From contig NC_057718.1 in assembly GCF_004010195.1 (NCBI RefSeq), positions 46,677,274 through 46,741,273 of the forward strand: a stretch of DNA of 64,000 bases, read 5' to 3'. The notes under the pieces were generated by a model that was not told the origin of the DNA, made no database searches, and saw only the letters and a program-made list of their open reading frames with translations. The number at the start of each line of letters is the position of its first letter. Positions within the stretch are counted from its first letter, which is position 1. The position numbers and the translations under genes were made by a program. This document shows, piece by piece, positions 1,870-63,945 of this stretch. This DNA is from Chiloscyllium plagiosum (Eukaryota).

Positions 1870-2350
1870 AGGAGGGAACATCTCTGGGATACATGCACCA
1901 AACAAATGCATCGCCCTGCGGCTAACCATTTCAACTCCCTCCCACTCCACCAAGGATGTGCAAGTCCTGAGCCGCCTCCACCACCAAATCCAAGTCTGGA
2001 GGAAGAATGCCTCATCTGCCTTGGGGGCCCTCCAACCACATGGCATCAACATTGACTTCATCAGTTTCCTCATCTCCCCTCCCCATACCTCATTCTAGAT
2101 CCAACCCTCCAACTTGGCATCATCCTCTTGAACTGTCCTACCTGTCCATCTATTCGCTGCACCCTGTCCTCCGACCTGTATCCTTCCCAGCTACCTTCCC
2201 CCTATCTTCACCCTCATCTTTATATTTATCTCTCACTACCCCCACCCCTGCCCCTGCAACATTCCTGATGAGGTGCTTATACTCAAACCGTCGATCTTCA
2301 TGCTCCCTGGATGCTGCCTGACCAGCTGTGCTTTTCCAGCACCACACTCT
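1870..2350 (+). mobile_element. Penelope-like element 3' fragment (GIY-YIG C-terminus + terminal repeat)
   Basis: NHFNS.SHSTKDVQVL...LEEECLI..LGALQPHGINIDF; terminus similar to 7560-7720; decayed CTGATGA motif near 2265. Confidence 0.8.
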
Positions 2351-7591: not shown

Positions 7592-7627
7592 ATTCCTGAA
7601 GAAGGGCTCATGCCCGAAATGTCGATT
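7592..7627 (+). ncRNA. Minimal hammerhead ribozyme motif in PLE terminus
   Basis: CTGAAGA-A-GGGC(tcat)GCCC-GAAA-tGTC; antisense copy at ~6888-6923. Confidence 0.7.
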
Positions 7628-16845: not shown

Positions 16846-17186
16846 CTTAACCTCAATTGTAACAATAGCTAAAACAGTCAAACAGTAGTAAGGAATTCTA
16901 TTTACACCGCTCTGTCCAGATTGCTCCTGGCTTACTGGATTCAGCTTGACATTACAATTAAGCACTGGCAGGAGGACAAATTTAAATCAGCATTTGATGG
17001 TACAAAACTTGAGTGTTGCTGGAAAATAAACATTTCATTGGAAATTTTTCATCTTGAACTCATCAGGCTAATTTGCAAGAATATTGATTTATTAATACTT
17101 GAATGCATTAATAATGCATTGATATGTTGCATCTAATATACACAACATACCATCCTGTGAGGGTGACTGGCAATCCTAAACTGGTT

Positions 17187-17327
17187 AGGCTGCATCCAAG
17201 GAGCAGGAGAATTGATGTTTTGGGCAACTCTCCTGCTTCTTGGATGCTGCCTGACCTGCTGTGCTTTTCCAGCACCACAGTCTTCCACTCTGATTCTCCA
17301 GCATCTGTAGTCTTAACTTTCTCCTAA
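17187..17327. mobile_element. PLE-terminus mini fold-back
   Basis: gcatccaaggagcaggaga ... ctcctgcttcttggatgc inverted arms, followed by the rest of the PLE terminus. Confidence 0.75.
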
Positions 17328-17634: not shown

Positions 17635-17865
17635 GCGGATGCTGGAATCCAAGATAGACAAGCAGGAGGCTGGAAGAACATAGCAAGCCAGGCAACTTCA
17701 GGAGGTGGAGAAGTCAATGTTTCTGGTGTAACACTTCTTCAGGACTGGGGTAAGGTGAAAAAGGAGCTGCAGATAAAAGAGGGGGAGGTGGTGGGGGTGG
17801 GGTGTGAGGAGGGGATTGTGATGAGGTAGGGAAAGGTGAGCACAGGTGGAGGGTATGATCTGCAG
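17635..17865 (-). mobile_element. PLE terminus with HHR motif
   Basis: Reverse complement agtc-CTGAAGA-agtgttacacca-GAAA-catt-gact. Confidence 0.7.
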
Positions 17866-17869: not shown

Positions 17870-18680
17870 TGTCTAAAACCCTGTTAGTGGCAAACACCAC
17901 AGTATTGCAACTGCCTAGTTGCAGTGTGAAACACCTGTTACTCCAACACTTGAGGCACCTTAACTTTCCAGGGTAACTGAGGTTGACCGTCCACTTTCCA
18001 GGATCAGAAGTGACAGACTTCAGGCCACTCATGAGTTTGTGGGATATGCAGTAAGAAATGATCTGATCAGAGGAGTCATTGTCCTGTAGAATGACACAGA
18101 CTAGTTCCATTTCAGTTTTTAACATGCACAGTGAAAGAAATGGATCAGGCCCTATTTACAAATTTAATACACATGGACCCTGTTCTTTCCAGACAAAAAG
18201 CATGTGTACATGCAATGCATCTATTTCAACTCAACAAAACAGGTGACCAACATTTGCTGGTTCACTTCTGAGGGAAATGCCTTCATCAATCAGGGTCAAG
18301 GTGTCTGGTTTAACATTTTAACAAATCCTGGCAGTTAACTATCCATCTTTAACTGCTGCATTCTTCATGGAAACAGCTCTCCCAATCAGAGACAAAAAAA
18401 AATTAGCTCCCCCTACCCCCAACCCCCACATCCAGTCCTGAAGAAGGGTTGCACCTGAAACAGTGACTTCTCCACCTCCTGATGCTGCCTGGCATGCTGT
18501 GTACCTCCAGCCTCCTGTTTGTCTACTCCCAATCAGATTCCACTTGTCAACCACTCACCATTCTTTCTCATATGGTGTAAATAGTTGTTTCCCCTTAAAT
18601 TGGTATTGTTGTGGTTTGTCCTGATGAGTGCAAGGTTAAAAGCTTTGACAAAATGCCTCGTCAGTTTTCAGCAGTACTCA
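17870..18680 (+). mobile_element. Second, distinct Penelope-like family 3' fragment ending in an HHR; split by a nested PLE terminus
   Basis: GIY-YIG-tail-like remnant ~18150-18235; tttgtc-CTGATGA...aaaagcttt-gacaaa at 18615-18652. Confidence 0.55.
18391..18525 (+). mobile_element. Nested PLE terminus with HHR and 12-bp TSD
   Basis: TSD ctcccaatcaga at 18379-18390 and 18526-18537; agtc-CTGAAGA-a-gggt(tgc)acct-GAAA-cagt-gact. Confidence 0.8.
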
Positions 18681-20871: not shown

Positions 20872-21062
20872 CAAAACAGAAAGTGCTGGAGGAAATCAGC
20901 AGATCTGGCAATATCTGTAGAGAGAAAAACAGTTAAATGTTTCTTGAGAACTAGAGTCACTGGACTCAAAATCTTAATTGTGTTTTTTTCTCTACAGATA
21001 CTGCAAGACCTGTTGAGTTTCTCCAGCACATTCTGCATTTGCAGTCCTTTGCTTTTATTCAA
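20872..21062. mobile_element. PLE-terminus fold-back with 10-bp TSD
   Basis: gtgctggaggaaatcagcagatctggca / tgcaagacctgttgagtttctccagcac inverted arms; TSD ctgtctttaa at 20862-20871 and 21063-21072. Confidence 0.8.
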
Positions 21063-27659: not shown

Positions 27660-30170
27660 TGGAAAACACTGCACTATCGACCCTGCAAAGTTCTGCTTAC
27701 TAACATCTAAGATTTTTGTGCCAAAGTTGAGAGAGTAGTCTCACAGATGAGTCAAGCAACACCCTGGTATGATTATATGCATAAAAAAGATCATCCCTTA
27801 CAAACAATGCCCTAGCCACCGGTATCACCATCATTGGGTATGGCCTGACCCACTGGTAGGACAGAACCGCTGAGTTGACAGCACAGTGACGTACACAGTC
27901 ACAACGGGGTTGTCCTGGGAGTCCTCAACATTGATTCCAGACACCATGAAGTGCATTGATAGCAGGTCAAACCAGAGTAAGGAATCCGAAACAAATACAC
28001 AAATTGCTGGGAAACCTCAGCAGGCTTGGCAGCATATGTGGAGAGGAAAGAAAGGTTAACATTTCTGATCCAGTAACCCTTTTTCAGAACTGTTCTGACT
28101 TTTGGCAGCAATGTCTGTTTTTGTTTCTGATTTCCACCATCCACACTTTTTTTTAATGGATAAGGGATCTTCTGGCTGATTACCTCGCAAAGGAATGTTT
28201 CACCCACACTTTCTCCTTAGTTGATAAGTCAATGCTTCTCCATGCTGAATAACACTTGGAGGAAGCACTGAAGGGAGCAATGGACTCTGTGTGGGGGGCT
28301 TCTATGTAGCACTACTGATTGAGCTAGTTAAATCTTGATGACATTGCTGCCAAAATGAGTCTGCAGCAGGAAGTGAGGGAACCAACAAGAGGGAAACATA
28401 CCTGATTTCATTCTGACCAATCTGCTGGCTGCAGATGCACCTAAACATGACAGTATCAGTAAGAGTGACTATTGCACAGTCCTCTGACGAAGTCACTATG
28501 CCTTCACATTGAGAATATCTTCCATTGAGTTGTGTTGTGCACTTGAACACAATCTGTAACTTCTGATCACATTAGGGGATCAACATTAGTTCAATGAAGA
28601 ATGTAGGAGGGCCTGCCAGGAACAGCACTGGGCATACTTAAAAATGAGGTGTCAAGCTGATGAAGTGACAAAACAGGGCTGCTTGTGTGTCAAACAGCAT
28701 AAGCAGCAAGTAACAGATGGAATAAAGAGATTCCAGAACTAAAAGATCAAATCTGAGCTCTTCAGTCATAGTCATAGAGATGTCCAGCACGGAAACAGAC
28801 TCTTCAGCCCAACTCATCCATGCGACCAGATTTCCTGAACTAATCTAGTCCCATTTGCCAGCACTTGGCCCATATCCCTCTAAACCCTTCCTATTCATGT
28901 AACCATCCAGATGCCTTTTAAATGTTGTAAATGTACCACTCTCCACTATTTCCTCTGACAATTCATTCCATACACGCACCATCCTCTGTGTGAAAAGGTT
29001 GCCCCTTAGGTCCCTTTCAAATCTTTCCCCTCACACCCTAAACCTATGCCCTCTCGTTCTGGACTCCCCCACCCCAGGAAAAAGACCTTATCTATTTATC
29101 CTATCCATGCCCTTCATGATTTTATAAACCTCCATCAGGTCACCTCTCAGCCTCTGATGCTCCAGGGAAACTGCCCCTGACACATCTAGTCATGAATGAG
29201 GGTAAACAATGAAACAATTCACTGAAGGAGGACTCTCACCAATATCCCAATCGTAATTGGTGGTGGAACCCAGCACATCAGTGCAAAAGATAAGGTGGAA
29301 GCATTTGCAACAACTTGAGGAGCAATAAAGGCTGGCCAGCTAGCGCCATCCATGTCCCACAAGTGCCAAGTGAATGATTAATCTCAGACTTCTTCAGAGG
29401 TCCCCAGCAATTCAGATGCCAGTTTTCAGCCTATTTGATTCACTCCACATGATATCAAGAAATGGTCGGAGACACGAGATACTGCAAAGGCTGTGGGTCT
29501 GACAATATTCTGGCAATAGTACTGACTTGAGTTCAAGAACTTGCTGCTCCCCTAGCTAAGCTCTTCCAGCATAGTCACAGCACTGGCATTTATTTGACAA
29601 TGTGGAAAATTGTCCAGGTATGTGCACAAAAAGCAGGACAAAACCAACCCAGCTAATTACCACCCCATCAGTCGACTCGATCATCAGTAAAGTGATGGAA
29701 GGTGCCATCACCAGTGCTATCAAGCAGCACCTGCTCAGCAATAACCTGCTCAGTGATGCCCAGTCTGGGTTCTGCCAGGACCACTCAACTCCTGACCTCA
29801 ATACAGCCTTCAAACATGGATTAAACAGCTGAATTCCAGAGGTGAGGGGAGAGTGACAGCTCTTGACGTCAAAGCAGCTTTTGAACAAGGAGCCCTAGCA
29901 AAACTGGAATTGATGGGAATTGGGAGAAAAACCCTCTGCTGATTAGAATCGAAGCTGGAACATAGGAGGATGTTGTGGGTTTCGAAGTCAGTCATCTCAG
30001 CTCCAGGACATCTCTGCAATAGTTCCTCAGGGTGGTGTCCCAGGCCCAATCATCTTCAGTTACTTCATCAATGACCACTCCCCGCCTCCCCTCATAAGGT
30101 CTATAATGGAGATGTTTGCTAATGATTGCACAATATTCAGCACCATTTGCTACTCCTCAGATACACTCCT
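27660..30170 (+). mobile_element. Decayed L2-group (non-CR1) LINE ORF2, with nested inserts
   Basis: NPANY.PIS..SIISKVMEG, QSGFCQDHSTPDL, ALDVKAAF, VPQGGVPGPIIFSYFIND, MFAND; endonuclease-like 5' part; nested PLE terminus at ~27985-28150. Confidence 0.75.
28767..29180 (-). mobile_element. CR1 3' end nested in the L2-group LINE
   Basis: Reverse complement of the CR1 ORF2 end and 3' UTR; tail tagtcatagag. Confidence 0.9.
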
Positions 30171-39091: not shown

Positions 39092-39258
39092 AGGAGCAGG
39101 AGAGTCACCGTTTCGAGCATTAGCTCTTCATGATGAAGAGTTTATGTTTGAAACGTCAATTCTCCTGCTCCTTGGATGCTGCCTGACCAGCTGTGTTTCT
39201 CCTGCACCACACTTTTTGACTCTGATCTCCAGCATTTGCAGTCTTCACTATATCCTTG
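39092..39258. mobile_element. PLE-terminus fold-back with two opposed decayed HHR motifs and an 11-bp TSD
   Basis: TSD tcttcaaccca at 39081-39091 and 39259-39269; centre cgtttcgagcattagctcttca / tgatgaagagtttatgtttgaaacgtc. Confidence 0.8.
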
Positions 39259-47113: not shown

Positions 47114-49989
47114 CTGAAAGAATAACAGAATGAACAGTCTAAGAATTAGGTTTGATTTTAGAACCTATAGACATACAATTTAAACTCAGATCAATAGATC
47201 AGACATGTTTAGTATTTATGACTTAAAATCAGTCTTGCCTTGATTACATGGTCTGCACAGAATTATATAGGGCTTTTGCTCAGTTGCACCCTGAGACTGA
47301 TAGAACCTGACCTATTTTATGATGCTAATTGAGCTTCTTCTAATATTAGTATAGTGTACAGGGTGTGATTCACTGTGAATATGTAAAGATTATACTAAGC
47401 TGATGGCTCAAAGTATCCAAGTTTTAACAGACTGGTGGATTTCCTTAATAGGGAACTGGATGAAAAAGTTAAAAAAAACACTGGCTGCAAGGCACATGGA
47501 CACACTGGCTCCAGTTTTAGGAGGTGGTCTAAATTTATTTCTTGCAGAGCAATTAAACAGCTTCATGTAAACAGGTAGCCACCAAAGAGGCTCAGGAATA
47601 GTTACGAGTAACTGATCTCCACTTTATTCAAGTTTGAAGGCCAAGGTATAGGAGGAAAGTTCTCACAAAGCATTCATTTCTATTGGGCATTCTACAGTAA
47701 TACATGAACATTGTGGGGCGGTCCTTTAGTTTACATAAAATCCAGGCTTGCATCAAGTCTAGCACAGAGCAAGAGCATATGAAAACACAACTCATGAACC
47801 AGACACTCCATAGACCTGAACGCCCAACACAGCCGCCAGTGTCTGATGTGTAGCAGTGCTGTAGGCCACAAAGGATTGTATTATAGGCTTTAGATTTAGT
47901 CCATAGATACAAAAGATTATTTTTGACGTAATAAGTTACCTGACCACAATGTTTAAAATACAGATTGCAGGCAGAAGTCACATGAATACCACACTATGGG
48001 GAACTATGGAAACCTATGCAGATATGCTCGCAGCTGTTATGTGTCAGTTGAGTCTTTCACAAGTATAGGAAACCTTCTGTAATTCAATAGACAGAAACAT
48101 TTCTTTTAAATTTCTTACACACTTCGGTTGAAAGTATTTAAATAAGTTTAAACTGTTTTACAGATGTCTGGTATCATTTTTATTTACATCATCTATACAA
48201 ACTATTTGTATCTTGACTTAGCTAAAGGTAAATAGAAAAGTGCAGATCTTTGGCTATTTCTCAATAAGGCATTACTCAGTTATTAGACTGTGACCCATAT
48301 TAACCAGCAGGGCTAATATTTTACAGAAAGAAAATTTTAAAACAAAATAAGCAAACATTAAAATAAAAGAGGATGAATATTTAAGGAATTAGCCATTACA
48401 ATTCTGAAAAATGTTCTACAAGCCATTAGGTGTTGACAAACCTATATCCTATTGAATGTTAGTATCATGGAATCATTCATTACCTGATAATTAGAGAACA
48501 GAAGGAGGCTTTTTGACCTATTGTTAGCCCTTAAAAGGAACAATTCATATACTACTGCCCTGCCCTGCCAAATCCATGCACATTGCTCCCTTTGAGATAA
48601 GCATCATAGAATTTTATCACACAGTAAAATTAAATTAGAATTCCATCTAGGATTGATTCACCATTTAAGATCCGAGCTTGTCTGAAAACAGATATATTGC
48701 GAAATTGTTGCATTGGCAAGCAATTATATTAATAAAGATACCTGGTCAGAGTAGAAAAGCTTGGACCACATATCAAAAATAAATATTTTTAAAAAAACTT
48801 AACCTACTCACAGCCCCCAAGAAACACAATACCACTCTGCTGATTTGAAGACTTCAGGCCTTTCCAGATTTCAGTAGTCACTCAGAAAGATGATAAACTA
48901 AGTTGGCATTTACAAAACCATAACCAAGTGCCAATTGTCACAATGGATAGAATTGCATCAAATACACTGCAATGGCAGCCTTCCCCCTCATAAGATGATA
49001 ATTTGTATCGTGGAGGTTAATTAGATCACAGACCCGCAGGAGCAGAAAGTCCTTAGGGACTCCAGCAGTAACAGGTGTGCAGTTCGTGGTGGGCAAATGC
49101 TTGACATTAATGATTAGTAAATTAACTAGCGTTCCAAATATAAGACCCTTAGTGCAGCCAACAATTGCTGTTAATAAGATCTATCCAAAAGCAAGCACAA
49201 ATATTGCAATACACAGTCATGGTATTTGAATAAACTAAATTAGAAAAAGATGTGAAATCTATTCAGCTCAGCAGTTCTTGTTCAGTCCCAACAGAAACTG
49301 AATGACTTTACAATCTGACAGCTTTCCTGAAGTATTTTAAATTACCTCAAAATAGCAACAAAATACTTTTGTACAAATATTAAAACAGAGCTACTTTTTA
49401 AAGTATTGGAAATTGAAACTTCTAAAATACCTTCCAATTGACTATTAGGTTTCAGTAAGTGTAATGTATTCTACCAAATCAACAGACAATCTGGCATTGC
49501 TTTAGCTCTGATAATGAACTCTCAGTAAGCAATAATTCCAAGAAAAAGAGAGACCCACCCTGTTATAGCCAAAAAGCCAAAACTTGAGAAGGGACATTCC
49601 ACACAGATTTGGGTACTGTGTGTCTACAACACTCTTTAGGCACTTCAAGAACATAATCTTAGTTTGCTTAAAATATTGTTTGGATTGAGCCTAATTTTAT
49701 TGACAGCTTTTGGGATCATATTAACACAGTAGAGGGGATTTGTTTCATTGTGTTGGTTGAGGTTTAGTAAGCAAGATATTTTATATAAATGCTTGGAAAT
49801 TTTGTGTGATAATTTTATCTTTGAGACTTGCCTATGTGTTGCGTTGAAAACAAACGTAATTTGCAGGATCTTAACCCCTCACACATTTGACATTTGAAAT
49901 TATATTTATGATGGATGCAATCTGCCATATGACAGCAACAAATTAAGACACATTAAAGAATGCCCTTTCAAAGAACTGTCAAAATAGTT

Positions 49990-52400
49990 GGATAGAAATT
50001 GTAGGGGGTTTCAACTTCCCTCATATTAACTAGGGTAGTCATAGTGCGAAAGGTCTTGAGGGAATGTAATTCTTAAAATACATCCAGCACAGCCTCTTAA
50101 GCCAGTATGTAGAATACCCTAAAAGAAAGTCCTTAACTTAATTTTTTAGTAACAAAGCCAGGCAAGTGGTTCAAGTAACAGTGGGAGAGCATTTTTCAGA
50201 CAGTGATCGTAACTCAGTTAGATTCAAGATTATTATGGTTAAAGACAAACATGGGCCTAAAATCTAAGTTTTAGATTGAGAGCAAGGCCAATTTTAATAA
50301 GATCAGATATGATTTGGCCAAAGTGGATCAGGAGCAGATACTTTTAGGTAAATCTGTGTCAGCCCAGAAGGAGGATTTCAAGAAGGAAGTAGGGAGATTA
50401 CAGGGCCAACATTGTTCTAATAAAGATAAAAAGTTCGCCTAACAAATCCAATGAATCCTGGATATCAAGGGATATACAGAATTGAATAAAGAGGCTTATG
50501 GCAGATATTGAGGCCACAAAACAACAGAAGTCCTAGAGGAGTACTGAATGTGCAAGGGCAAATTTAAAAAGGAAATAAGGAGACCAAAAAGAAGGCATCA
50601 AAGAATTGCGGCAGGCAAAAATAAAGGAAAGCCCTTAGTTATTTTGCAGGTACATTAAAGTAAAAGGGTAACTAGAGAAATAGTAAGGCCTATTAAGAAT
50701 CACATGGTAATTTGTGCATGGAGCCAGCAGATGAGGATAGGGTTCTAAAAGATTACTTGTGTCTGTGTTTATTAGTGAGAGGGACAATATGGTTATAGAA
50801 GTCAGGGAAAAGGACTGTGATATACTTTAAAAAATCAGCATTGACAGAGAAGAGATTCTGAGTAGTCTGGCAGGCTTAAGAGTAGATAAACTTCTAGACC
50901 AGATGAAATATATCCCAGGCTATTCAGTGAGTCAAGGGAGGAAATAGCAGAGGAGCTGGCAATAATTTTCAATTCCTCTCTGACCACAGGAGAGGTGCCA
51001 GAGCACTGGAGGACAGCCAGTGTGGTACTGTTATTCAAGAAGGGAGCAAGTAATAAATCAGGACTGCGAGCCAGTCAGTCTAGCCTCAGTGATAGGGAAA
51101 CTATTGGAAGCAATTCTGAGGGACAGAATTAATCTGCACTTGGAGAGGCAGTGAGTAATCAAGAATAGTCAGCATGGTTTCGTTGAGGGGAGATTATATC
51201 TGACCAATTTGATTGTGTCAAAGAGATGATCGAATGTGTAGATGAGGGCTAGCTATTTGATGTAGTATACTTGGAGTCAGCAAGGCTTTGGCAAGGCGTG
51301 GCATGAAAGGCTGATAGCAAAAGCAACAGCCCATGAGAGCCAAGGAAAATTGAATCCAGAATTGGCTCAGTGGCAGGAAGCAGAGGATGATGGTCAAGGG
51401 CTGTTTTTTTTTTGTGCCTGGAAGTCTGTGTCCAGTGAGGTTCTGCAAGGATTAGTGTTGGGGCTCTCACTATTTGTGATACATGTAAACAATTTAGACT
51501 TGAATGTAGGAGGGTTGATCAGTAAGTTTGTGGATGAGACAAAAATTGGTTGGGTGGTAAATAATGAGGATTAAATTACAGAATGGTATAGATAGGCTGG
51601 TCAAATGGGCTGATGAGTGGCAAATGGAATTCAATCCAGAGAAGTGTAAGGTTATGTGCTTGGGCAGGACAAACAAAGCAAGGGAATATACAATGAATGG
51701 TAGTTTCCTGAAATGCACTGAGGATCTGAGGAACTTTGGTGTACATGTCCACTAGTCCCTGAAGGTAGAGGGTCAGGTAGATAAAGTGGTTAAGCAGGCA
51801 TATGAGATACTTGCTTTTATTAGTCAAGGTATAGAGTTTAAGAGAATTGAGGCGAACACTGGAACTGTAAAAAAAAGTTGGTCAGGCCACAGTTAGAGAG
51901 TCAGAGTATGAAGGATATTTACCAGCATGTTGGCTGGCCTGGAGAATTATAATTATGAAGAGAGATTAGATCATTTGGGGTCATTTTCCTTGGAGCAGGG
52001 GACACTGAGTGGTGCTGGGTGGCGGTGGTGGTAGTGGTAGGGCTAGGGAGAACAATATTGAGAAATGTAGAGTGTAGACAGAAGGAAGCTTTCCCGCCCC
52101 CAGTGGGCAGATCAATAACTGGGGGCATAGATTTAAGGTAAGGGGCAAGAGATTTAGAAGGAATGTGAGGACATTTTTATTTACTCGGAGGCTGCTGGGA
52201 ATCTGGAACTCACTGACTATAAGGGTGATATAGACAGAAACACTCAATTATTAAGCAGTATTTATGTACCCATCTGCAATGTGAACACATACAAAGATGT
52301 GGGTGAAGTCCTGGTAAATGGGATGAGAATAACTGATTGTTTTGACTAGCGCAGACTCAATGAGCTGAAGGGTCTTCTTTCTGCAGATCTCTGTGGCTCT
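49990..52400 (+). mobile_element. Old, long CR1 LINE (endonuclease end through 3' UTR), many stops
   Basis: GGFNFPHIN, EHFSDSD.N, WRTASVVLLFKKG, QHGF, LVLGLSLFVIHVNNL, FVDETKIG, WQMEFNPEKCKVM. Confidence 0.9.
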
Positions 52401-52679
52401 GAAGAAGTTCAAAGTTAACTTGGTAACAATCAAATTGTCTCGAGATTTCAAATGTCACAGAATCTAACATTTTTTTTTGTATCTGGTAATCTGCATTTGT
52501 CTAATTAGAGACAATTAATGTTGGTACATGATAATAAAGTCTACAACCCCTGGGAAACCTCAGGGTAGAATTCCCCTAGAAGTTCCACTGTTAACTGCAT
52601 CCCCACAATTTGCATTTCATGAGATCATGACTAACAAACAGCTTGGATTTTAACTGGCTTGCTCGGGTTTTTTTATGTA

Positions 52680-52995
52680 CTCACAGGCTTAGCCAGCTTT
52701 TATGACCCATTCCTGAATGGCACTTGTGAGTTAACAGTTAGGACAGTTTAAAAGTCAACACGTTATTGAGGTTCTGGAGTCATATGTAAGCTTGGCTGGG
52801 TAAGGATGGTATTAGAGATATTAGATGGTATAGGGGCATTAGTGAACCAGATGGGTTTTTCCTGACAATCAACAACAGTTTTATGGTCATCATTAGACTT
52901 TTAAAATTCATTTTTGTCAAACTGAATTCAAATTCCATCATCTGCCATGGCAAGATTTGAACCTGGGACATTACCTGGGTCTCTGGATTAACAAT
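52680..52995 (-). mobile_element. tRNA-derived SINE
   Basis: Reverse complement contains caggttcaaatc (B-box) and the aaaaacccatctggttcactaatg core. Confidence 0.65.
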
Positions 52996-53009
52996 CGAGT
53001 GTGTGGTAT

Positions 53010-53236
53010 TGAATAGGAAAGGTTTAGAAGGATTTGGCCAATTGATGGAAAAGCACAGCAGGTCAGGCAGCATCCAAGGAGCAGGAGAATCGACGTTTCA
53101 GGCATAAGCCCTTAATGAGGAAGCCCTGATGAAGGGCTTATGCCCAAAACATCGATTCTCCTGCTCCTTGGATGCTGCCCGACCTGCTGTGCTTTTCCAT
53201 CATTTGGCCTATATCCTTCTAAACCTTTCCTATTCA
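53010..53236. repeat. ~105-bp-arm inverted repeat: PLE termini plus inverted CR1 flank
   Basis: tgaataggaaaggtttagaagg...gcataagccctt / aagggcttatgcc...ccttctaaacctttcctattca. Confidence 0.85.
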
Positions 53237-53500
53237 CATATCCATCCCAATGCTTCTTAAATGTTGTAATTGCACCTGCCTCCATCACTTCCTCTGGCAG
53301 CTAATTCCATACATGCACAACCCTCTGCATGAACAAATTACCCCTCAGGTTCCTTTCAAATCTTGCCCCTTTCACCTTAAACATATACCCTTTACATTTG
53401 ACTCCCCTATCTTGGGGAAAAGACCATGCCCTTCAAGATTTTGTAAACCTCTATAAGGTCACCCCCTCAGCCACTGATGCTCCAGGCGAAATAGCCCCAT
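53200..53500 (-). mobile_element. CR1 3' fragment
   Basis: Reverse complement of the ORF2 end. Confidence 0.8.
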
Positions 53501-55004
53501 ATAACTGCACTACTCCTACTTCTGTCCCTCCAAGTCAACATGCTGCTTTGAACAATTATGTGATACATAGTGGAACAGGTTATGTATTCGTCAAATACAA
53601 AGCTTGGCCCTGATGATCCTAAGACACCCCAAAGGGGTACATTTTAAAATGTTATTTTACAATCCCCTGCAGAATTGAGAGGTGCACTCATGCTCCTTCC
53701 ACCCAGACACAGAGCATTTCTGACTCTCTTGATCAATTTGCCCTTAGTGTCGCTCCCCTCAGTCACATCCAGGTCCTTCCCTATCCTTTATCCATACTGC
53801 AGCCTCCAATTGACATACTCAGCCATTACCAAGGTAGTGGAGCTGAGGTAACTGATCAATTTCATGGAAATGCGTAGGGCTGCTCTTTGCTGCCTTCACA
53901 AGTTCAACATGCTCTGTGCCAACCATCTCTAGTTTCAGTAAACCATCCTTAACGGTTCTTTTCAAATAACCTTTTCATATGTAAACTGTTGCTTCTTAAG
54001 CTACCTTAAAATAATTTATGAATAGTCAATTGCCTATTTTTAGGTCAGTGCATGTCCCAAGTCCCAAGGTTGTGACAAAAAGCAGTCTCTACTTGAAATA
54101 TTTTGGTGTTAATCGTGTAACCTCCATAATGACAAAGTTGGAACAGAGTTTGGATCTATGCAGGCAAATGCTTTTCAATGCATAGGCCCAGCTCTTAATT
54201 GCAAACCGGCAACAGAATGACTCAGAATAATTCCTACCTCTCTAATTGCTCAGTTCTAACATTTGGACAACTCAGTTCAAAGCTACAGAGTAAGTGACTT
54301 GTGCAAGGGTGCCTATGTCCAGTTATAGCAAGATTCAACTGATTGAGATTCCTTCTGTTTTTGTCATTCAGAGATCTATAAAGGGCCATGTCCAGTTCCT
54401 GGCCTTTCCTTAGGGTTCTGCAAAGAGTGAGAGGAGAGGACAGGGAGAGAAGAGGGAGAAATGACAAGTGTTGGATGGAAACTGGAGAGCATTTACTCAG
54501 AGTACCTATGAGGAATAGGCATGCTATTGTGCAAAACTGAGGGTGCATGTCACTGGTGGATAGTTAGACAGGGATATGAGGAACTATATAAATAAAAGGT
54601 ACACCTGGAACATTGGTTGGTGTGTATAGTGATATGCCACACTAAACTTGAGAAGGCAGAGTGAAGGAATTAATACATTCATGATGTAAGTCAATGCACC
54701 ATTAATCCCACATTCCCTGACTTGTTTAGGGCATTGAAGCACTCCCTACATTGGATCAACGGGCATGTTGCATCTGATCCTAAACCCTTGGACAATCTCG
54801 ATCCACATATCTTTGAATCAACAGCAGGCTTCTCCCTCCGATTATGAAGGAATAGTACTTCCCTGCGTTGATCTGGGTTCTTATAACCTCCTAAAATATA
54901 TTCAGGGAGAAACTGGAAAAGCCAGCTATAGCCTTTGACAGTGTTGACTCCATTTCAAGTTTTGTTCCTCTCTTCATGGCTACTACAAGATTTCAGAACG
55001 CATG

Positions 55005-55243
55005 TCACAGAATCCCTACAATGTGGAAGCAGACCATTCAGCCCATACTGACCCTTTGAGGGGCATCCCACTGAGACCCATAGCTATTCCACCTAACCTG
55101 CACATCTTTGTGACTGTGGGAGGAAACCAACACAGACACAGGAAGAATTTGCAAACTTCACGCAGACAGTTGCCTGAGGGTGGAATCGAACCTGGGTCCC
55201 TGGCACTATGAGACAGCAGTGCTAACCACTGAGCCACAGTACT
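55005..55243 (-). mobile_element. HE1/V-SINE-like tRNA SINE
   Basis: A-box tggctcagtgg, B-box ggttcgattcc, V-domain-like gtttgcaaattcttcctgtgtctgtgttggtttcctcccacagtc. Confidence 0.85.
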
Positions 55244-55934
55244 GGCTGTCTAGATTACTCCTTTAAATGATGAAATGAGACCAGGTCATCATCATGCCCA
55301 ATGCTGGTAATTGACCTTGAAATCCAAAAATAGAATGATAATAGGATATCTCAGTTTAAATGTCACTGAAAGAATCTCCGCATTTATTCTACCTCCAGAA
55401 TTCACCCACACTCAAACCCAACCTCAAGTTTTTGACCAGAATAGTGGCTAAAAATGTATTAAAGATTTTTATCCTCACTTTCTTTTTTGAAAAACAAGAA
55501 ATTCTAAAAGAGTTATTGTTCTCTGAAGTCTATGATAACATGATCAGAAACCTTGGCATGGAAAGAGATCAAAGTCACATGGTGTAATTAGATTAGACCA
55601 GCAGTATTTTAAGGAATGTGCACATATAAACAAAATAATTACTGTCATGACACTGCCCTACAGAAAGCCAGAAGAACTAATGGTTCTGAACCCTAGAGCA
55701 CAGAGACACAAACACTGATACAATTATATTATCAGAGGTGATACAACCTGTTTGAAGAAATGCAATTATACCCTTTGTGTCATGGTTAGCTTGCCATAAT
55801 CATCTGACATTTACCGCTGCTGTAAGTGCCTTTCTATATAGTCTGTGGCAGCCATTAAACATACATTACTATTACTGTACAAAGTGTCAGAAAAGGTACA
55901 GCTAAGAATGTACTATACAACATCAAAGCCTGCT

Positions 55935-57200
55935 TCCTGTAAAGATTCTATTCCTACATCACTGTCACATCTGTTCTGATGATGGCAACTTCTACAAGGC
56001 CTCCGAAATGTTCACCCTCTTCCTCAACTGAAGATTCCACAGCACTGGAGTTGACAAGGCCCTCAGGCATGTGTGACCCATCCCCCACACTTACGGCCTC
56101 ACCTCCTCTCTTCCCTCCCATAGCAGTGATACGGTCCCCTGGTCTTCACCTGGCCCACCACATCCACATCAAGAGGATCGTTAGCTGCCATTTTCTGCCA
56201 TCTCCAGCAAGATGCCACCACCAGACACATATTCTCCTCCTCTCTCTAGTTAGCATTCAGCAAGGACCATTCCTTTAAGGACACCCTAGTCCACTCCTCC
56301 TTCTCTCTCAACACATCGCCCCACAGCCATGTGACACCTTCCCCTGCAAATGCAGAAGGTGTAATACCTGCCTATTTACTTCCTCCCTCCTCAGTACCCA
56401 AGGACCCAGACAGACACAGACACAGGAAGAATTTGCAAACTCCACACAGCCTGAGGGTGGCATCGAACCTGGGTCCCTGGTGCAAGAGGCAGCAGTGCTA
56501 ACCACTGATCCAGGTGAAGTAGCTATTTACCTGCACTTCACTCAATCTTGTTGATTGCACGTACTGCTCTCAGTGTGGTCTCCTCTACTTTGGGGAAATG
56601 AAGCATAGACTTCGTGACCGTTTCACAGAAAAGACCCTGAGCTTTTTGTTGCCTGTTACTTCAACACACCACCCTATTCTCTGGCCAATATCTCTGTCTC
56701 AGGCTTGCTGCAATGCTCCAGTGAAGCTAAGCACAAGTTGGAAGAACAGAAACTTATTTTCCACTTGGGAACTGTACAGCCTTCTGGACTCAATATCGAG
56801 TTTAACAGCTTTAGGGCTTGGCACCTTCTCTCATATCCATACCCCCACTCCCACACACCAGGTCTTGTTACCACATGTCTGCTATTACACATAACACATT
56901 GTTAGCCACTAATAGTCCCCATTATTAGCTATTTTCCTGGGCTGACTGTATCGACTCCTTTGTCTAACTGTTTTTCTCTCTCTTTGAGCTCTGACTCCAT
57001 CTACCGTTTATTCCTTACCCCACTCCCCCAATCCTACCTTTTGCATACACAACAACTTTCCCCTAGCTACCATCAGTTCTGAAGAAGGGTCACTCGACCC
57101 GAAACGTTAACTCTGATTTCTCTCCACAGATGCTGCCAGACCTGCTGAGTTTCTCCAGCATTCTTCTGTGGATCTCCAGCATCCACAGTTGTTTGTTTTA
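55935..57200 (+). mobile_element. Penelope-like element 3' part (RT C-terminus, GIY-YIG, terminus)
   Basis: CKDSIP..ICSDD; C.CRRCNTC; FTCTSLNLVDC..CSQCGLLYFGEMKHRLRDRF; LEEQKLIFHLGTVQPSGLNIEF; nested SINE fragment at ~56410-56507 (minus). Confidence 0.88.
57075..57112 (+). ncRNA. Best-preserved minimal type I hammerhead ribozyme
   Basis: AGTT-CTGAAGA-A-GGGTC(ACTC)GACCC-GAAA-CGTT-AACT: intact core, 5-bp stem II, 4-bp stem I, palindromic AACGTT stem III. Confidence 0.78.
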
Positions 57201-57994
57201 TTGCAAAGAATATGTCTTTGTTTGCAGAGGCATCCTCTGCATTGGGATACAAGAAAGGGGAACAGACTTGCATTTGCCAATATGCTGGTGAATGCAACAC
57301 TCCTTTTAAAGGAAGTTAATGCTAAAACAGTGTGTCTTGTATATTTAACCAGAAGCAACAGCTTGCATGCTCTGGAAATCATCAACCCAGCAACAGTGAA
57401 ACTGGAAGAGCAGCATTTTGCTCAAATTAGGCAAATAATGCAGCAAAGTGCAATTTCCCAGTGCAGTGGAACTTGTGATGAAAGAATGGCCAAAGTATCA
57501 AAGACACACTCATGCATTAGGCACAGAGGAATAAAGTGAAAGCCCAAGGCAGCATCTCATACAAAGAATAATTATCTCTAAGGCGATGAGGATAGAGATC
57601 TTAACATATATTAACTTCATCAAAGTATTTGAAGGAAGCACAATTGGTACGCCAATGGTCAAATGAGAAATGCTTTCAGCAATACGATTAAAGGTCACAT
57701 CAGCCTATGCAGTGCTTGCTGCAAATACTAAGCTCAGCTATTTAGTGAGCATGACATTAGCTGTGCATTTACTACAGGCAGTGGGTCAGATAGAAGTCAC
57801 TGTGGCTCAGCAAGCAAAATGGATCAGCAACAGCACTCACTACAGCATCAACATTGCCTGGAAGAGGAAGATTACATCAGGAATGAGCATATATTAGAGG
57901 AACAGACAATGACAATGTGCATGGATACCATTAAGAGACCCATACGATTTAAAGACAATGTATGCATGTACAAATAGTAATGGAAATCACTGAA

Positions 57995-58120
57995 AGTAAG
58001 GTCGCCATCATAGATCATATGGCTGCCCTTTCATTAGAGGGAGACAACTGGTGGTGGCTTAATCTGAAGGTCACCACGCCTCAGGCAAGGGAGATGTTTG
58101 AGAAGGTGAGGCCTTCACAG
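57995..58120 (-). mobile_element. SINE 3' part (family of 8455-8642)
   Basis: Reverse complement tgaaggcctcaccttctcaa...gaggcgtggtgaccttcagattaagccaccaccagtt. Confidence 0.55.
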
Positions 58121-59177
58121 TTAGCACGCTGCTTGTTAATGAATGGTAGTTTTGTTTGTAATCATGTATATTGAATAACTTACATACATGTAATTGCAAA
58201 TGATAATACATGCAAATTTTGTTTTTTTTATAAACAGTGGAATGTTTGGAGAAATGCAATTGTACCTTTTGTACCGGTTGGCTTGCCATAGTCATGTGAC
58301 CTCTGCTATAAGTCATTTTGTGTGCAGTCTGCAGCAGTCACTCAATACACTTATAACAGAACCCACCTTTAAATTGTCGCAATTATTTCCTGACAGCACA
58401 TCATGCAATTGCTATCTGTCATATGCCAGTTTTTGGCGAATTCTGACATCTAATATGAGCTGTAATATAAAACTGAACTTAAAAGTGAAACAAAATAATG
58501 TAGAACCGTAGAGGATGCTACTGAGCAGTGATACAAGATATAAGCATTATCTCTCCAGAGAGAATATCAGTTAGTCAGTAGAACAAACATTCACAACGTT
58601 TGCCTCCTCATGCCTCGGGTGTTCCTATTTTGAGAATGCTCAGTTGCTAAAGGATAACAGCAGACAACACAAATGACTACATATTGTCCCTGGGGTTACT
58701 TGCTCAGGTCAGGCATGCTATAGTGCCCACATCATCATCCATTTTAAATCAGAATGTCTTATTTAACTGCAGCATTCATTCTCTTATGCACTGTGGATGT
58801 TTATTTTTGTGGCCTCGCAACTGAAAAATTTGACTAATATTACGGAATAGCAAAAGGCTTTTTTTTTGTCATTTTTAGAATAGCAGGCTTGGACCTTCCA
58901 ACTGAGGACATTGGTGGATTAATTCAGCACGGACCCATTAATACAGACCAGTAAAGTTTCGGCTTGTCGTTTCAGCTCAGACAATGCAATTCGTTCAAGC
59001 ATACTGCAGTTAAGTCACCATCCAACAAATCCTTCCCTTCACTGCAAAAACTCTCTACTAGCTGAAGACAGATTTTTGAGTTGTATTACTGAAAATCAAC
59101 CATATTCAAATGTGTAGTGTGGGGAACCTCCATAACATTCCCCATCCCCCAAGAGTCCTTGGCTGCAAAGGAAAACA

Positions 59178-60262
59178 AAATAAATAAAAACTGAAAGAAC
59201 TGCAGATACTGTAAGTCGAAAACAGCAACAGAAATTCCTGGAAAAGCTCAGCAGGTTTGGCAGCATGTGTGAAGAGAAATCAAAGTTAACTTTTTGAGTC
59301 CAGTGACCTTTCCTCAGAACTGATGGTAGCTAGGAAAATGTCAGTTCATATGCAGAGGATAGGGTGAGGGTGGGGATAGAGCCCAAAGAGAGAGAATAAC
59401 AGTTAGACAGATAAAGGAATGGATTACGATCTGGCAGGAAAGGTGTTAATGGTAACTGTTAGTGGCTAACAACAGGTAATGTGTAATGGCAGGCTATGCG
59501 ATAACAAGGCCTGGTGTGTAGACCGAGGGGCTTGGACATGGAAGGGTTCAGGCCCTAAAATTATTGAACTCGATATTGAGTCCAGAAGGCCATAGGGTCC
59601 CCAAGTGGAAAATAAGGTGTTATTCTTTCAGCTTGTGTGGAGCTTCACTGGAGCACTGCAGCAAGCCAGAGACAGAAATGTTGGCCCGAGAACAGGGTGA
59701 TGTGTTAAAGTGGCAGGCAACTGGAAGCTCAGGGTCTTTTTGCAGGCAGAACGTAGACGTTTCTGCAAAGCGGTCACCCAGTCTATGCTTTGATTCCCCA
59801 GTGTCGAGGAGAAGCTCAGCAAAGCTCAGTGCAAGCTAGAAGAATAACACCTTAATTTCCACTTGGGGACCGTGTAGCCCTCTGGACTCAATATCGAGTT
59901 CAATAATTTTAGTGCCTGAACTCTCCCATGTTGCAGCCCCCTACTCCACACACCAAACCTTGCTATTACACACGACCTAGTGTTAGTGACTAATAATCTC
60001 CATTAACAACTATTCACCCTCCTAGCCAGATCGTTATCCACTCATTTATCTGTCCAACTCTTCTTCTCTCTCTGTGTTCTATCCCCAACTATCGTTTATC
60101 CTTACTCCCTCCTCTCACCCTATCTTCTGTATATAAACCGGCATTTTCCTCGCTACAATCAATTCTGAGGGAGGGTCACCTGACCCGAAAGGTTAACTCT
60201 GATTTCTCTTCACAGATGCTGCTAGACCTGCTCAGCTTTTCCGGCAAGTTCTGTTTTTGTTT
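59178..60262. mobile_element. Large fold-back Penelope-like insertion with 12-bp TSD
   Basis: Minus copy ~59190-59810 and plus copy ~59820-60262 of the GIY-YIG tail + terminus; TSD caaaggaaaaca at 59166-59177 and 60263-60274. Confidence 0.85.
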
Positions 60263-60364
60263 CAAAGGAAAACAGTATCACCACCACAAAGACATTGTCA
60301 TTTGCCTACTGCAATGGAGCAGGCATTAGGGGCTGAATTAGACACTCCTGCTCTGAGTTCTTAC

Positions 60365-60535
60365 ACACAAATCACACAAACCAGCTTTCCATCTGTTGAC
60401 TCCATCTACTCTTCTCCTTGCTGCGGAAAGGCAGCCAACATCATCAAAGACCCTTCCCAATCTGGTCATAAGCTCTTCCAACCTCTTCCATCAGGCGGAA
60501 TATACAGAAGCTTAAAACACATGTATCAACAGGTT
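60365..60535 (+). mobile_element. Rex1/Babar-type LINE 3' fragment
   Basis: PSVDSIYSSPCCGKAANIIKDPSQSGHKLFQPLPSGG.YRSL. Confidence 0.75.
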
Positions 60536-60618
60536 ATTTGTCCAAAATGAAGGGTACATCATTCCAGACAAAGAAACATTCTCTTTACCCTGGTCTAGAG
60601 GGCTTAGTCCCAGCTAGG

Positions 60619-62530
60619 CATAGAGTCATAGAGATGTACAGCATGGAAACAGAACCTTCAGTCCAACCCATCCATGCCGACCAGATATCCCAGCCCAATC
60701 TAGTCCCACCTACCAGCACCCGGCCCTATCCCTCCAAACCCTTCCTATTCATATACCCATCCAAATGCCTTTTAAATATTGCAGTTGTACCAGCCTCCAC
60801 AACTTCCTCTGGCAGCTCATTCTATACACGTACCACCCTCTGCATGAAAATGTTGCCCTGTAGGTCTCTTTTAAATCTTTCCCCTCTCATCCTAAATCTA
60901 CGCCCTCTAGTTCTGGACTCCCTGACCCCAGGGAAAAGACTTTGTCTATTTATCCTATCCATGCCCTCATGATTTTGTATACCTCTATAAGGTCACCCCT
61001 TAGCCTCCAACGCTCCAGGGAAACCAGCCCCAGCCTGTTCAGCCTCTCCCCATAGCTCAAATCCTCCAACCCTGACAAACATCCTTGTAAATCTTTTCTG
61101 AACCCTTTCAAGTTTCACAACATCTTTCCGATAGGAAGGACACCAGAATTGCACGCAATATTCCAACAGTGGCCTAACCAGTGCCCTGTACAGCCCAAAC
61201 ATGACCTCCCAACTCCTGACTCAATACTCTGACCAATAAAGGAAAGCACACAAAATGCCTTCTTCACAATCCTATCTACTTGCGACTCCACTTTCAAGGA
61301 GCTATGAATCTGCACTCCAAGGTCTCTTTGTTCAGCAACACTCCCTAGGACCTTACCATTAAGTGTATAATCCTGCTAAGATTTGCTTTCCCAAAATGCA
61401 GCACCTTGCATTTATCTGAATTAAACTCCATCTGCCACTTCTCAGCCCATTGGCCCCTCTGGTCCAGATCCTTATGTAATTAAGGTAACCTTCTTCGCTG
61501 TCCACTACAACTCCAATTTTGGTGTGATCTGCAAACTTACTAACCATACCTCGTATGCTCGCATCCAAATCATTTATAAATGACAAAAGGTAGAGGACTC
61601 AGCACCAATTCTTGTGGCACTCCACTGGTCACAGGCCTCCAGTCTGAAATACAACCATCCACCACCACCCTCTGTCTGCTACCTTTGAGCCAGTTCTGTG
61701 TCCAAATGGCTAGTTCTCCATGTACTCCATGAGATCTAACCTTGCTAATCAGTCTCCCATGGGGAACCTTGTCGAACGCTTTACTGAAGTCCATATAGAT
61801 CACATCTACCGTTCTGTCCTCATCAATCCTCTTTGTTACTTCTTCAAAAACTCAATCAAGTTTGTGACACATGATTTCCCACACACAAAGCCATGTTGAC
61901 TATTCCGAATCAGTCCTTGCCTTTCCAAATACATTTACATCCTGTCCCTCAGGATTCCCTATAACAACTTGCCCACCAATCACTTCTCTAGCTTCCCACA
62001 GAGTTCTAGGGTACACCTGATCAGGTCCTGGGGATTTATCCACCTTTATGCGTTTCAAGACATCCAGCACTTCCTCCTCTGTAATATGGACATTTTTCAA
62101 TGTGTCACCATTTATTTCCCTGCATTCTATATCTTCCATGTATTTTTCCACAGTAAATACTGCTGCAAAATACTCGTTTAGTATTTCCCCCATTTTCTGT
62201 GGCTCCCCACAAAGGCCACCTTGCTGATCTTTGAGGGGCCCTATTCTCTCCCTAGTTACCCTTTTGTCCTTAATGTATTTATAAAAACCCTTTGGATTCT
62301 CCTTAATTCTCTATTTGCCAAAGATATCTCATGTCCCCTTTTTGCCCTCCTGATTTCCCTCTTAAGTGTACTCCTACTGCCTTTATACTCTTCTAAGGAT
62401 TCCATTGATCTATCCTGTCTATATCTGACATATGCTTCCTTCTTTTTCTTAACCAAACCCTCAATTTCTTTAGTCATCCAGCATTGCGTATACCTACCAG
62501 CCTTTCCTTTCACCCTAACAGGAATATACC
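60619..62530 (-). mobile_element. CR1 LINE, ORF2 mid-to-3' end with internal deletion
   Basis: REIRRAKRGHE, KSPGPDQVYPR, YMDFSKAFDKVPHGRL, SGVPQ.LVL, FADHTKIG, LYRALVRPLLEYC; tail catagagtcatagag. Confidence 0.95.
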
Positions 62531-62881
62531 TTCCCTCAGAACCACAGGGTAGTGCTGGAGGTTAATCATTTAAACCAGACTCTGAGATGAACCAAATATC
62601 AGTGACCTTCTGGCTGTGTACGCCCAGAACCATCCTAATCCTTAAAAGTTTAGTCTCCAAAATTATCTGGAAGTGAATGGTTGGAATCCTCATCCCCAGT
62701 GATAGACCTTTCAGATCTAATAAATGATTTACCAGTGTGGCTTAATCATTCACAATATCATAAAGTACTATGAACCTGTCCAGCTCAGTTTACTGGGTTG
62801 GCCTTGGATGGATAGTTTGCTTCCAAAATTCAATTTCCCAATCCATCATTTAGCATCACTATGACTCAAAACTAACCTCCA

Positions 62882-63378
62882 CCATAACCATAAGACATAG
62901 GAGCAGAAAGTAGACCAAACAGCCCACTGAGTCTGCTCTGTCATTCAATGAGATCATGGCTCATCTGATCATCCTCAACCCCACCTTGCTGTCTTTTCCC
63001 TACAACTCTTCAATTCCCTGACTGATTAAAAATCAGCCTTGAATATATGTAATGAACCAGTCTTGACAGCTCCCCTCACTTAATAATTTTACAGATTCAC
63101 TACCTTCTGAGAGAAGATATTCCTCCTCATCTGTCTTAAACAGGTAATCAGTGATCCTGAGACTAATCCCTCTGCTCTTAGCCTCTCCCATATGGGAAAG
63201 CACACCTGTGTTAAATATCCAGGGATCTGGAAGGATTCAATAAGGTGGCCTCTCATTCTTCAAAACCCCAATGAGTACAGGCCCAACCGACTCAATCACT
63301 CCTCATCAGACAGGAACTCCATAACTAGCATCAGCCTAGTGAATCTTCACTGAACAGCCTCTAATGCCAGTATCTACC
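62882..63378 (-). mobile_element. CR1 3' portion, (TCTTATGG) tail subfamily
   Basis: Begins ccataaccataagacataggagcaga; reverse complement of the 19778-20497 type. Confidence 0.8.
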
Positions 63379-63399
63379 ATTGGAGAATATTCATGAATT

Positions 63400-63490
63400 G
63401 AGAGTGGTGCTGGAAAAGCACAGCCGGTCAGGCAGCATCCGAGGAGCAGTAAAATCGATGTTTCGGACATCTGCAGTCCTCCCTTTTGCC
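63400..63490. mobile_element. Collapsed PLE-terminus insertion
   Basis: gtgctggaaaagcacagccggtcaggcagcatc... then catctgcagtcctccc; flanked by atattca repeats. Confidence 0.65.
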
Positions 63491-63624
63491 ATATTCACTA
63501 ATTGGCCACTGTCCAACTGGCAAGCATGGGTTTGCATTTGCTGGATAGAAGCCAAGAGGAGCTCAGCATAAGCACAACTATTCACATAAGCTGTCAGAAT
63601 GCATTGCCACCCATTTTGTCAGCA

Positions 63625-63945
63625 CAATAAAGTATACCAGAGAAAACATTCTATCTGGATGCAGTTGCTTGGTATAGCAACTGGTCTGTTAGGACCATAA
63701 GAAATTACATAAAGTTGTGAACACAGCCCAGAACATCACACATGCCAGTGTTCCATCCATTGACTCCATCTACTCTTCTCGTTGCTGCAGAAATGTAGCC
63801 AACATCATCAAAGACCCTTCCCACTCCGGTCATAATCTCTTTCAAACTCTTCCATCAGGCAGAATATAGAAAGCTTAAACACATACGTCAAAATGTTCAA
63901 GATCAGCTTCTTCCCTGCCTTTATTAGATTTCTGAATGGATCTCT
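63625..63945 (+). mobile_element. Rex1/Babar-type LINE 3' end
   Basis: ENILSGC..AWYSN.S..D.KKL.KVV.TAQNIT, IIKDPSHSGH.LF..LPSGR, SFFPAFIRFLN. Confidence 0.8.

What the first reader, a model, noticed from the sequence alone, without database searches (positions are those of the whole stretch)
57075..57112. Family of minimal hammerhead ribozymes in Penelope-like termini, with compensatory stem changes between subfamilies
Seen: about ten PLE termini carry intact or decayed CTGANGA-A-[stem II]-GAAA motifs (2265, 6900-, 7596, 17725-, 18438, 28070-, 39130, 53126, 57079, 59300-, 60165). Stem II sequence differs but pairing is kept: GGGC/GCCC (7604-7615), GGGTC/GACCC (57087-57100), GGGT/ACCT (18446-18456). 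Stem I covaries: AGTT/AACT (57075) versus AGTC/GACT (18434, 17720-). Stem III is reduced to a palindrome (AACGTT). Known: PLE terminal repeats carry minimal type I HHRs thought to cleave as dimers through the palindromic stem III. Inference: this copy, with an extra A after the CUGANGA box and a GUU cleavage triplet, may still self-cleave. It lies antisense within a probable host intron.
Basis: partly seen in the sequence, partly recalled or inferred. Interest (0 to 1): 0.75.

Follow-up and report, generated by a model that had tools for sequence, protein, structure and literature searches.

The report
Shark Penelope-end hammerhead, likely inert relic
The motif is a real, intact-looking copy of the minimal hammerhead-ribozyme sequence that Penelope-like jumping genes are already known to carry at their ends, and it sits in a broken, likely old copy in shark-like DNA where it likely does nothing.

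Summary
Observation confirmed. 57075-57112 is a minimal type I hammerhead (min-HHR), the only one of 14 aligned copies with core, CpG bases and both stems intact. It ends a 5'-truncated, frameshifted GIY-YIG Penelope-like element (about 56008-57210) whose closest named relatives are elasmobranch. The window holds 20 such termini in three families; three stem pairs change on both sides between subfamilies. Across genomic copies the core decays as fast as the tail (6.2% vs 7.7%, p=0.71); G12 is lost by CpG decay in about a third of family depth in three organisms; one intact copy among 11 is expected by chance. The 3' junction is shared by two other organisms, so the insertion is likely old. No fully intact partner lies in cis and no host exon was found. 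Family-wide fold-back joints cluster at stem I. This scan found the same kind of thing before (25 notes, at least 10 genomes, including this one). Verdict: new member of a known kind, low interest.

The parts
57075..57112 (+). Minimal type I hammerhead motif, intact (stem I 57075-78/57109-12; box 57079-85; extra A 57086; stem II 57087-91/57096-100; GAAA 57101-04; palindromic ACGT 57104-07; U17 57108)
57072..57117 (+). Competing or extending helix I register (57072-76 with 57113-17), predicted pairing probability 0.6-0.7 against 0.02-0.03 for the 4-bp stem I
57113..57210 (+). Terminal part of the pLTR and tail; ATG at 57130 opens a short frame shared by families A and C, likely the element's ORF start
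   Evidence: known layout
56008..56815 (+). 5'-truncated, frameshifted PLE ORF remnant: RT-EN linker and GIY-YIG endonuclease; no RT core
   Evidence: tblastn with P0004, P0047, P0096, P0112; phmmer 124 hits; Pfam GIY-YIG on homologs, below cut-off
56345..56371 (+). Cys-rich C-x4-C-x2-C linker motif of Neptune/Nematis type
   Evidence: translation; definition
56400..56512 (+). Secondary short repeat inserted in the ORF remnant (approximate ends; SINE label recalled, not tested); sibling near 55130-55236
56816..57071 (+). 3' untranslated part of the element (pLTR upstream of the hammerhead)
   Evidence: alignment with 59317- and 60165+ copies
59284..59321 (-). Family C motif, left arm of an inverted pair; G12, G10.1 and C15.2 changed
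60161..60198 (+). Family C motif, right arm of the same pair; A9 and C15.2 changed; nearest same-strand partner, 3.1 kb away
28054..28091 (-). Family C stub starting at stem I; G8, C11.1 and C15.2 changed; joined to an inverted tail piece
20953..20979 (+). Subfamily C' stub (stem II GAGTC/GACTC), arm of a short inverted pair with 20884-20944 (-)
18434..18468 (+). Family B motif; U16.1, C11.1 and G16.2 changed
17712..17746 (-). Family B motif; C11.1 and G16.2 changed
7592..7627 (+). Family A motif; only C15.2 changed; inverted pair with 6888-6923 (-, A15.1 changed)
2261..2296 (+). Family A motif; G12 and A15.1 changed
53088..53157 (.). Family A fold-back pair; both arms begin 1-3 bases before C3; both cores damaged
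39103..39161 (.). Subfamily A' fold-back pair turning at G5/A6; A-U at the second stem II pair in both arms
17167..17274 (.). Family A fold-back pair lacking the box; one arm starts near the predicted cut, the other in the 3' strand of stem II

Best explanation
57075-57112 is an intact minimal hammerhead motif at the 3' end of a truncated, frameshifted Penelope-like retrotransposon copy; the motif was likely under selection only in the active source elements, and this copy is likely a neutral relic that kept its core by chance. In a source element the RNA would fold stem II in cis, two copies would pair through the ACGU palindrome and swap stem I strands, and one core would cut the other copy after U17, likely with help from the element protein (inferred from published PLE work). 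Reverse transcription would start about 100 nt downstream in the tail. RNAs starting at the hammerhead would give the short stubs and fold-backs; read-through RNAs would give longer copies such as this one. After insertion the copies decay neutrally, fastest at CpG.
For: Shown: PLE ORF remnant directly upstream on the same strand; 20 termini in 64 kb; 72,365-95,555 contig records laid per DNA run in three organisms. Two-sided changes at 3 of 8 pairs follow subfamilies. Divergence of this copy from the 59317/60165 pair is 45/281 upstream but 5/91 over hammerhead plus tail (p=0.012), while changes private to each arm of that pair are uniform (17/281 vs 7/91, p=0.62; 25/281 vs 7/91, p=0.83). Non-CpG core errors 8/129 vs tail 37/480, p=0.71; G12 lost in 4 of 14 copies and in 32-36% of family depth. 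Chance of at least one intact copy among 11: 0.72 (core) or 0.34 (core plus stems). 3' junction shared in organisms B and C (records 16 and 24). Active stem I register has probability 0.02-0.03; active dimer -17.5 vs best dimer -27.4 kcal/mol. Literature: monomer inactive, dimers weak; anole ribozyme protein-assisted and not needed for insertion in vitro.
Against: This copy has only 1 private difference in 46 hammerhead columns, about 3.5 expected at the siblings' rate (hand binomial p about 0.13), so locus-specific retention is not excluded; the orthologous cores in B and C were not covered by the contigs shown. The covariation rests on about four independent events; the measure that counts pairs is not above shuffles (392/500). 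Folding energies ignore core tertiary contacts, and my dimer model left out the outer helix. No cleavage assay was possible. Depths are summed contig depths, not copy numbers, and 41 rows of differences were not shown.
Confidence: 0.82

Rival explanations
1. This copy is still catalytically used: in a plus-strand transcript or in trans, its intact box-stem II-GAAA half cuts the GUU site of the 60165 copy or of other family RNAs, as the enzyme half of a double hammerhead.
For: Intact core and stems; 1 of 46 private differences; 60165 keeps U16.1, U17 and AACT; GUU is listed as an active site in PMC3138052; family sequences are common in RNA reads (1248 laid).
Against: 60165 has C15.2 changed, leaving a G-G mismatch in the dimer helix, and lies 3.1 kb away; published dimers cut weakly or need the protein; only 9 of 1248 reads were 99% alike and all fitted only partly; unique flank depth in RNA-labelled contigs is 0.3-1.
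Confidence: 0.08
2. The motif is kept in the element mainly as a structural signal (RNA start, annealing handle for second-strand synthesis, ORF leader), with cleavage incidental.
For: 12 of 12 opposite-strand joints shown link 57073-78 to 57109-25, one with the 4 stem I letters fitting both sides; catalytic mutants insert normally in vitro; some PLE clades lack hammerheads.
Against: The catalytic boxes are the same in all three families while the stems differ, which points to selection on catalysis; 11 of 12 joints show no shared letters; 290 joints were not shown; 57117 and 57119 are also alignment limits for other subfamilies.
Confidence: 0.07
3. The copy was co-opted by the host, for example as an intronic processing or splice signal on either strand.
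For: Shared junction in three organisms; acceptor-like pyrimidine tract ending in CAG at 57117-57129 (sequence).
Against: No host exon or GT-AG joint found; on the minus strand the motif is not a ribozyme (fold z=0.35); shared presence is expected of any old insertion.
Confidence: 0.03

Closest known systems
Minimal type I hammerheads (min-HHR) in pLTRs of metazoan PLEs (Cervera and De la Pena 2014, PMC4209133)
   Same: CUGANGAH box, G10.1-C11.1, GAAA-CG-UH with no helix III, short helix I, many families per genome with compensatory changes, mostly single motifs in truncated elements, some opposite-strand pairs.
   Different: No cartilaginous fish row in the alignment part read or in the supplement search (supplementary file 1 not searchable). 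Stem II is 4-5 bp, at the short end. A possible bulged outer helix I.
Neptune/Nematis-type EN+ Penelope-like elements (PMC8557442, PMC3846280)
   Same: C-terminal GIY-YIG, Cys-rich linker, 5' truncation, inverted pLTR pairs, optional tail, pLTR holding the first codons of the ORF.
   Different: No RT core survives here, so the clade cannot be fixed by phylogeny; no target-site duplication found.
Poseidon element PAc of the green anole (PMC11167929)
   Same: Hammerhead at the pLTR-ORF junction; RT start 111-118 nt after the start of stem II matches the tail end here (57198-57205 vs about 57210).
   Different: PAc is intact and was assayed; its ORF starts at stem II, here the likely ATG lies 22 nt after the cut; different clade.
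Non-LTR retrozymes (PMC7229834 listing; bioRxiv 10.64898/2026.07.22.740005)
   Same: Type I hammerhead of PLE origin; reported in one chondrichthyan genome.
   Different: Retrozymes are head-to-tail tandem units; the termini mapped here are single or inverted and several are attached to ORF remnants.

Membership tests
PLE min-HHR | CUGANGA box plus one extra nucleotide | tested here: met
   57079-57086; extra A in 13 of 14 copies
PLE min-HHR | Helix II closed by G10.1-C11.1, followed by GAAA | tested here: met
   5 bp, pairing probability 1.0
PLE min-HHR | Palindromic 15.2-16.2, no helix III, NUH triplet | tested here: met
   ACGT 57104-07, GUU
PLE min-HHR | Short helix I | tested here: met
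   4 bp in sequence, though predicted to be out-competed by a shifted register
PLE min-HHR | Located in the terminal repeat of a PLE, sense to the ORF | tested here: met
   ORF remnant 56008-56815 on +
PLE min-HHR | Compensatory changes among families | tested here: met
   3 of 8 pairs, 12 cells, 0/500 shuffles for cells; 392/500 for pairs; few independent events
Active hammerhead ribozyme | Self-cleavage after N17 | not testable with these tools
   No assay; the polyA single-cell reads are no test of cut ends
Rfam hammerhead families | Covariance-model score above threshold | tested here: not met
   0 hits at gathering score in the window; no hammerhead family at E<=10 in 401 or 66 nt
EN+ PLE | C-terminal GIY-YIG endonuclease | tested here: met
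   Homology to proteins with GIY-YIG hits below Pfam cut-off; the remnant itself gave no Pfam hit
EN+ PLE | Telomerase-like RT core | tested here: inconclusive
   Absent by 5' truncation; present in homolog P0096
Neptune clade | CX2-5CxxC linker between RT and EN | tested here: met
   56345-56371; also a mark of Nematis
Neptune clade | RT phylogeny | not testable with these tools
   No RT core in this copy and no genome held
Non-LTR retrozyme | Head-to-tail tandem units each with a hammerhead | tested here: not met
   The 20 termini are single or inverted; none in short direct tandem

The most novel reading that the evidence does not exclude
Hammerhead stem I doubles as the fold-back handle that builds inverted Penelope insertions: cDNA runs off an RNA 5' end at the start of stem I, its last bases pair with the copied 3' strand of stem I, and extension gives the 57075-to-57113 junction seen in contigs of three organisms. 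This would give the ribozyme fold a replication role apart from cutting, and the shark genome a fossil record large enough to test it.
Probability: 0.15. Interest if true: 0.6.

Novelty: new member of a known kind. Interest (0 to 1): 0.2.

Why it matters
As a single locus it matters little: it is one well-preserved copy of a motif class described in 2014. The family is a usable resource: very abundant, shared by related species, with fold-back joints clustered at stem I, so it could test where PLE RNA starts and whether cut or uncut RNA is copied, which is open (PMC11167929). My 6 paper searches found no description of shark PLE hammerheads, but the library is partial, supplements were partly unseen, and a 2026 preprint already covers one chondrichthyan.

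Tried and rejected
No own genome held, so no genome-wide count or R-scape test. Rfam gave no hammerhead hit. Pattern scans: 12 metagenome loci, none with a blastn match to the window and none read as this element; 0 in viral contigs. Host gene search: no host Pfam domain in 213 of 218 long ORFs and 104 of 267 short unmasked ORFs (those below 38000 not sent); no GT-AG joint among 15 of 61 joints shown for 44200-64000; A>T skew on + is 0.06-0.10 at 32-56 kb but 0.014 at 56-64 kb, too weak to fix a strand. No RNA holder listed; run X22 laid 0 reads (no test); no pile of read starts or ends in X21, not a test of cut ends. Word-based protein search with the endonuclease end found nothing; the search with P0003 was uninformative because it is a receptor model fused to a PLE piece. 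The regex anatomy mis-registered several copies and was replaced by the alignments; alignments A1 and A2 were dropped for gap placement and mis-cut ends. An idea that the outer helix I covaries in the 28087 copy was rejected: those bases belong to an inverted tail piece. No target-site duplication longer than chance 6-mers.

Full report
Observation. A descriptor requiring both boxes, a paired stem II, a paired 15.2-16.2 and a UH site hits only 57079 and 7596, against 0.005 hits per random window in 200 simulations. The loose pattern gives 13 matches against 6.08 expected. Rfam has no model that scores it. All 11 listed sites are real termini, and iterated nhmmer finds 20 at E<=0.01 among 22 hits, in three families by stem and tail sequence. 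At least six inverted pairs are among them (6919/7596, 17.2 kb, 20.9 kb, 39.1 kb, 53.1 kb, 59317/60165), and the 28087 stub is joined to an inverted tail piece.

The element. Upstream on the same strand lies a broken ORF, 56008-56815, matching the linker and GIY-YIG part of PLE proteins. It has frameshifts, stops, a short inserted repeat near 56400-56512 and a 22-nt deletion relative to the 59317 copy. Its last 57 residues find 124 proteins at E<=0.001. Of 8 looked up, 7 come from sharks, skates and rays and one from a sea urchin with RT and GIY-YIG hits below Pfam's cut-offs. A C-x4-C-x2-C motif at 56345-56371 fits the Neptune/Nematis linker. The RT core is missing, so the clade is not fixed. 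Downstream the element runs to about 57210. An ATG at 57130 opens a frame in which 3 of the 4 differences between families A and C fall on third codon positions (read); in rotifer Penelopes the pLTR holds the first 12 codons and the tail extends this to 22, so this is likely the ORF start (inferred).

Covariation. I aligned 14 of the 20 termini. Six were left out because they lack the box or are too decayed, and non-homologous 5' bases were trimmed from five rows. On 8 pairs, 85.4% of 96 cells pair. Three pairs change on both sides: the stem I pair next to the core (C-G/U-A), the second stem II pair (G-C/A-U, in two subfamilies) and the fourth (U-A/C-G). No shuffle of 500 reaches 12 such cells, but 392 reach 3 such pairs, and the tool warns that relatedness inflates these scores. 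This is about four independent events: real, modest, and at the level of source elements.

Decay. Non-CpG core bases are changed in 8 of 129 cells, tail bases in 37 of 480 (p=0.71); G12 is lost in 4 of 14, although the search favoured copies with a core. In contigs of three organisms (72,365-95,555 records laid per run) the CpG bases dominate: G12 G>A in 32-36% of depth, C11.1 C>T 33-42%, C15.2 C>T 25-32%, G16.2 G>A 32-36%; the free position N7 varies in 27-35% (41 rows not shown; depth is not copy number). With these rates at least one intact copy among 11 has probability 0.72 for the core and 0.34 with stems. Against the two arms of the 59317/60165 pair, this copy differs in 45 of 281 upstream columns but 5 of 91 over hammerhead and tail (p=0.012), while each arm's private changes are even along the element (p=0.62, 0.83). 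I read this as selection among active lineages and neutral decay after insertion. The weak point is that this copy has 1 private change in 46 hammerhead columns where about 3.5 are expected (hand binomial p about 0.13). Contigs of organisms B and C cross the 3' junction with 2 and 5 differences (records 16 and 24), so the insertion likely predates their split; these contigs do not reach the core.

Can this copy cut? Untested. Stem II forms with probability 1.0, the 4-bp stem I with 0.02-0.03, and a shifted helix with 0.6-0.7; the active dimer scores -17.5 against -27.4 kcal/mol for the best dimer (outer helix and tertiary contacts not modelled). The nearest same-strand partners are damaged (60165: A9, C15.2; 53126: G12, G16.2). 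A Schistosoma min-HHR monomer did not cut and multimers cut weakly. The anole PLE ribozyme cut only with the element protein, and its mutants inserted normally in vitro. GUU is an accepted site. No host exon or strand was established (see Tried and rejected), so the antisense-intron claim stays open; on the minus strand the motif could not act.

Where copies start. Of 15 joints shown (290 not shown), 12 join opposite strands, and all 12 have one side at 57073-78, the 5' strand of stem I. The other side is at 57109 (1), 57112 (2), 57113 (2), 57117 (4), 57119 (2) or 57125 (1). The last group is partly an alignment limit, since loose ends also pile at 57117 and 57119. In raw RNA reads of the family, depth goes from 14 at 57071 to 189 at 57083, so most family sequence does not continue into this copy's upstream part; other subfamilies contribute to that. 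In the window the short copies start at stem I (28087, 53119, 53126), in the box (39130, 39131), at or in stem II (20953, 20300, 63460, one 17.2-kb arm) or near the cut (the other 17.2-kb arm). This fits an RNA that starts at the hammerhead and is copied from the tail, mostly uncut (inferred). The 57075-to-57113 joint, with 4 letters fitting both sides, is what fold-back on stem I would give. It is 1 of 12, and earlier notes of this scan favour run-off and microhomology joining, so I keep it as the novel case at 0.15. Self-priming was already proposed for inverted PLE junctions.

What is known. PMC4209133 (main text parts 1-2 of 4; supplement search, file 1 not searchable; file 2 part 2 of 3) gives the consensus with the extra nucleotide, the palindromic 15.2-16.2, covariation among families, thousands of copies in coelacanth and frog, and CG-UU sites in 12 of 44 rows shown; no shark row was seen. 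The 2026 preprint (parts 1-2 of 5 and passages; supplements not seen) reports retrozymes in one chondrichthyan. PMC11167929 was read as passages and section 3 part 2; PMC8557442, PMC3846280, PMC6155905 and PMC3138052 as passages; PMC7229834 as a search listing only. Standard hammerhead numbering, the geometry of the double hammerhead and the SINE label are recalled. This scan holds 25 notes on the same kind of motif in at least 10 genomes; they are leads, not support.

Verdict. Real motif, correctly identified, member of the PLE min-HHR class on all sequence criteria tested; activity untested and likely nil at this site. New member of a known kind; interest 0.2.

Noticed in passing
window 57113-57210: The tail is shared across families more closely than the stems; ATG 57130 with third-position changes suggests the ORF start; two acceptor-like tracts (ending 57129, and further on in sibling copies) could be used in splicing. 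Its end matches the RT start distance measured for the anole element.
   Followed up: partly
window 57073-57125 (family-wide): All 12 opposite-strand joints shown have one side in the 5' strand of stem I; one uses exactly the stem I complement.
   Followed up: partly
window 39103-39161: Fold-back with a one-base centre at G5 of the catalytic box; both arms carry the A-U stem II variant.
   Followed up: partly
window 56400-56512 and 55130-55236: Two similar short repeats, one inserted inside the PLE ORF remnant; SINE-like by recall.
   Followed up: no
window 44200-47113: Long unique contigs at depth 11-12 in an RNA-labelled run (X20), well above the flanks near 57 kb; possibly an untranslated or non-coding transcript, or DNA in the run.
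   Followed up: no
window 10130-11691, 36285-37755, 61573-62561: LINE remnants with endonuclease or RT hits at 10130 and 61573; CR1-type by recall; N runs at 6992-7152, 11563-11664 and 36700-37242 lie in repeats.
   Followed up: no
proteins P0003, P0023, P0031: Public gene models in which the endonuclease end of this PLE family is fused to host domains (neuromedin-U receptor in a skate, DUF4518, NYAP): exonised pieces or annotation errors.
   Followed up: no
window 33349-33552: Weak match to the PLE RT region (E 0.001-0.007), not linked to a mapped terminus.
   Followed up: no
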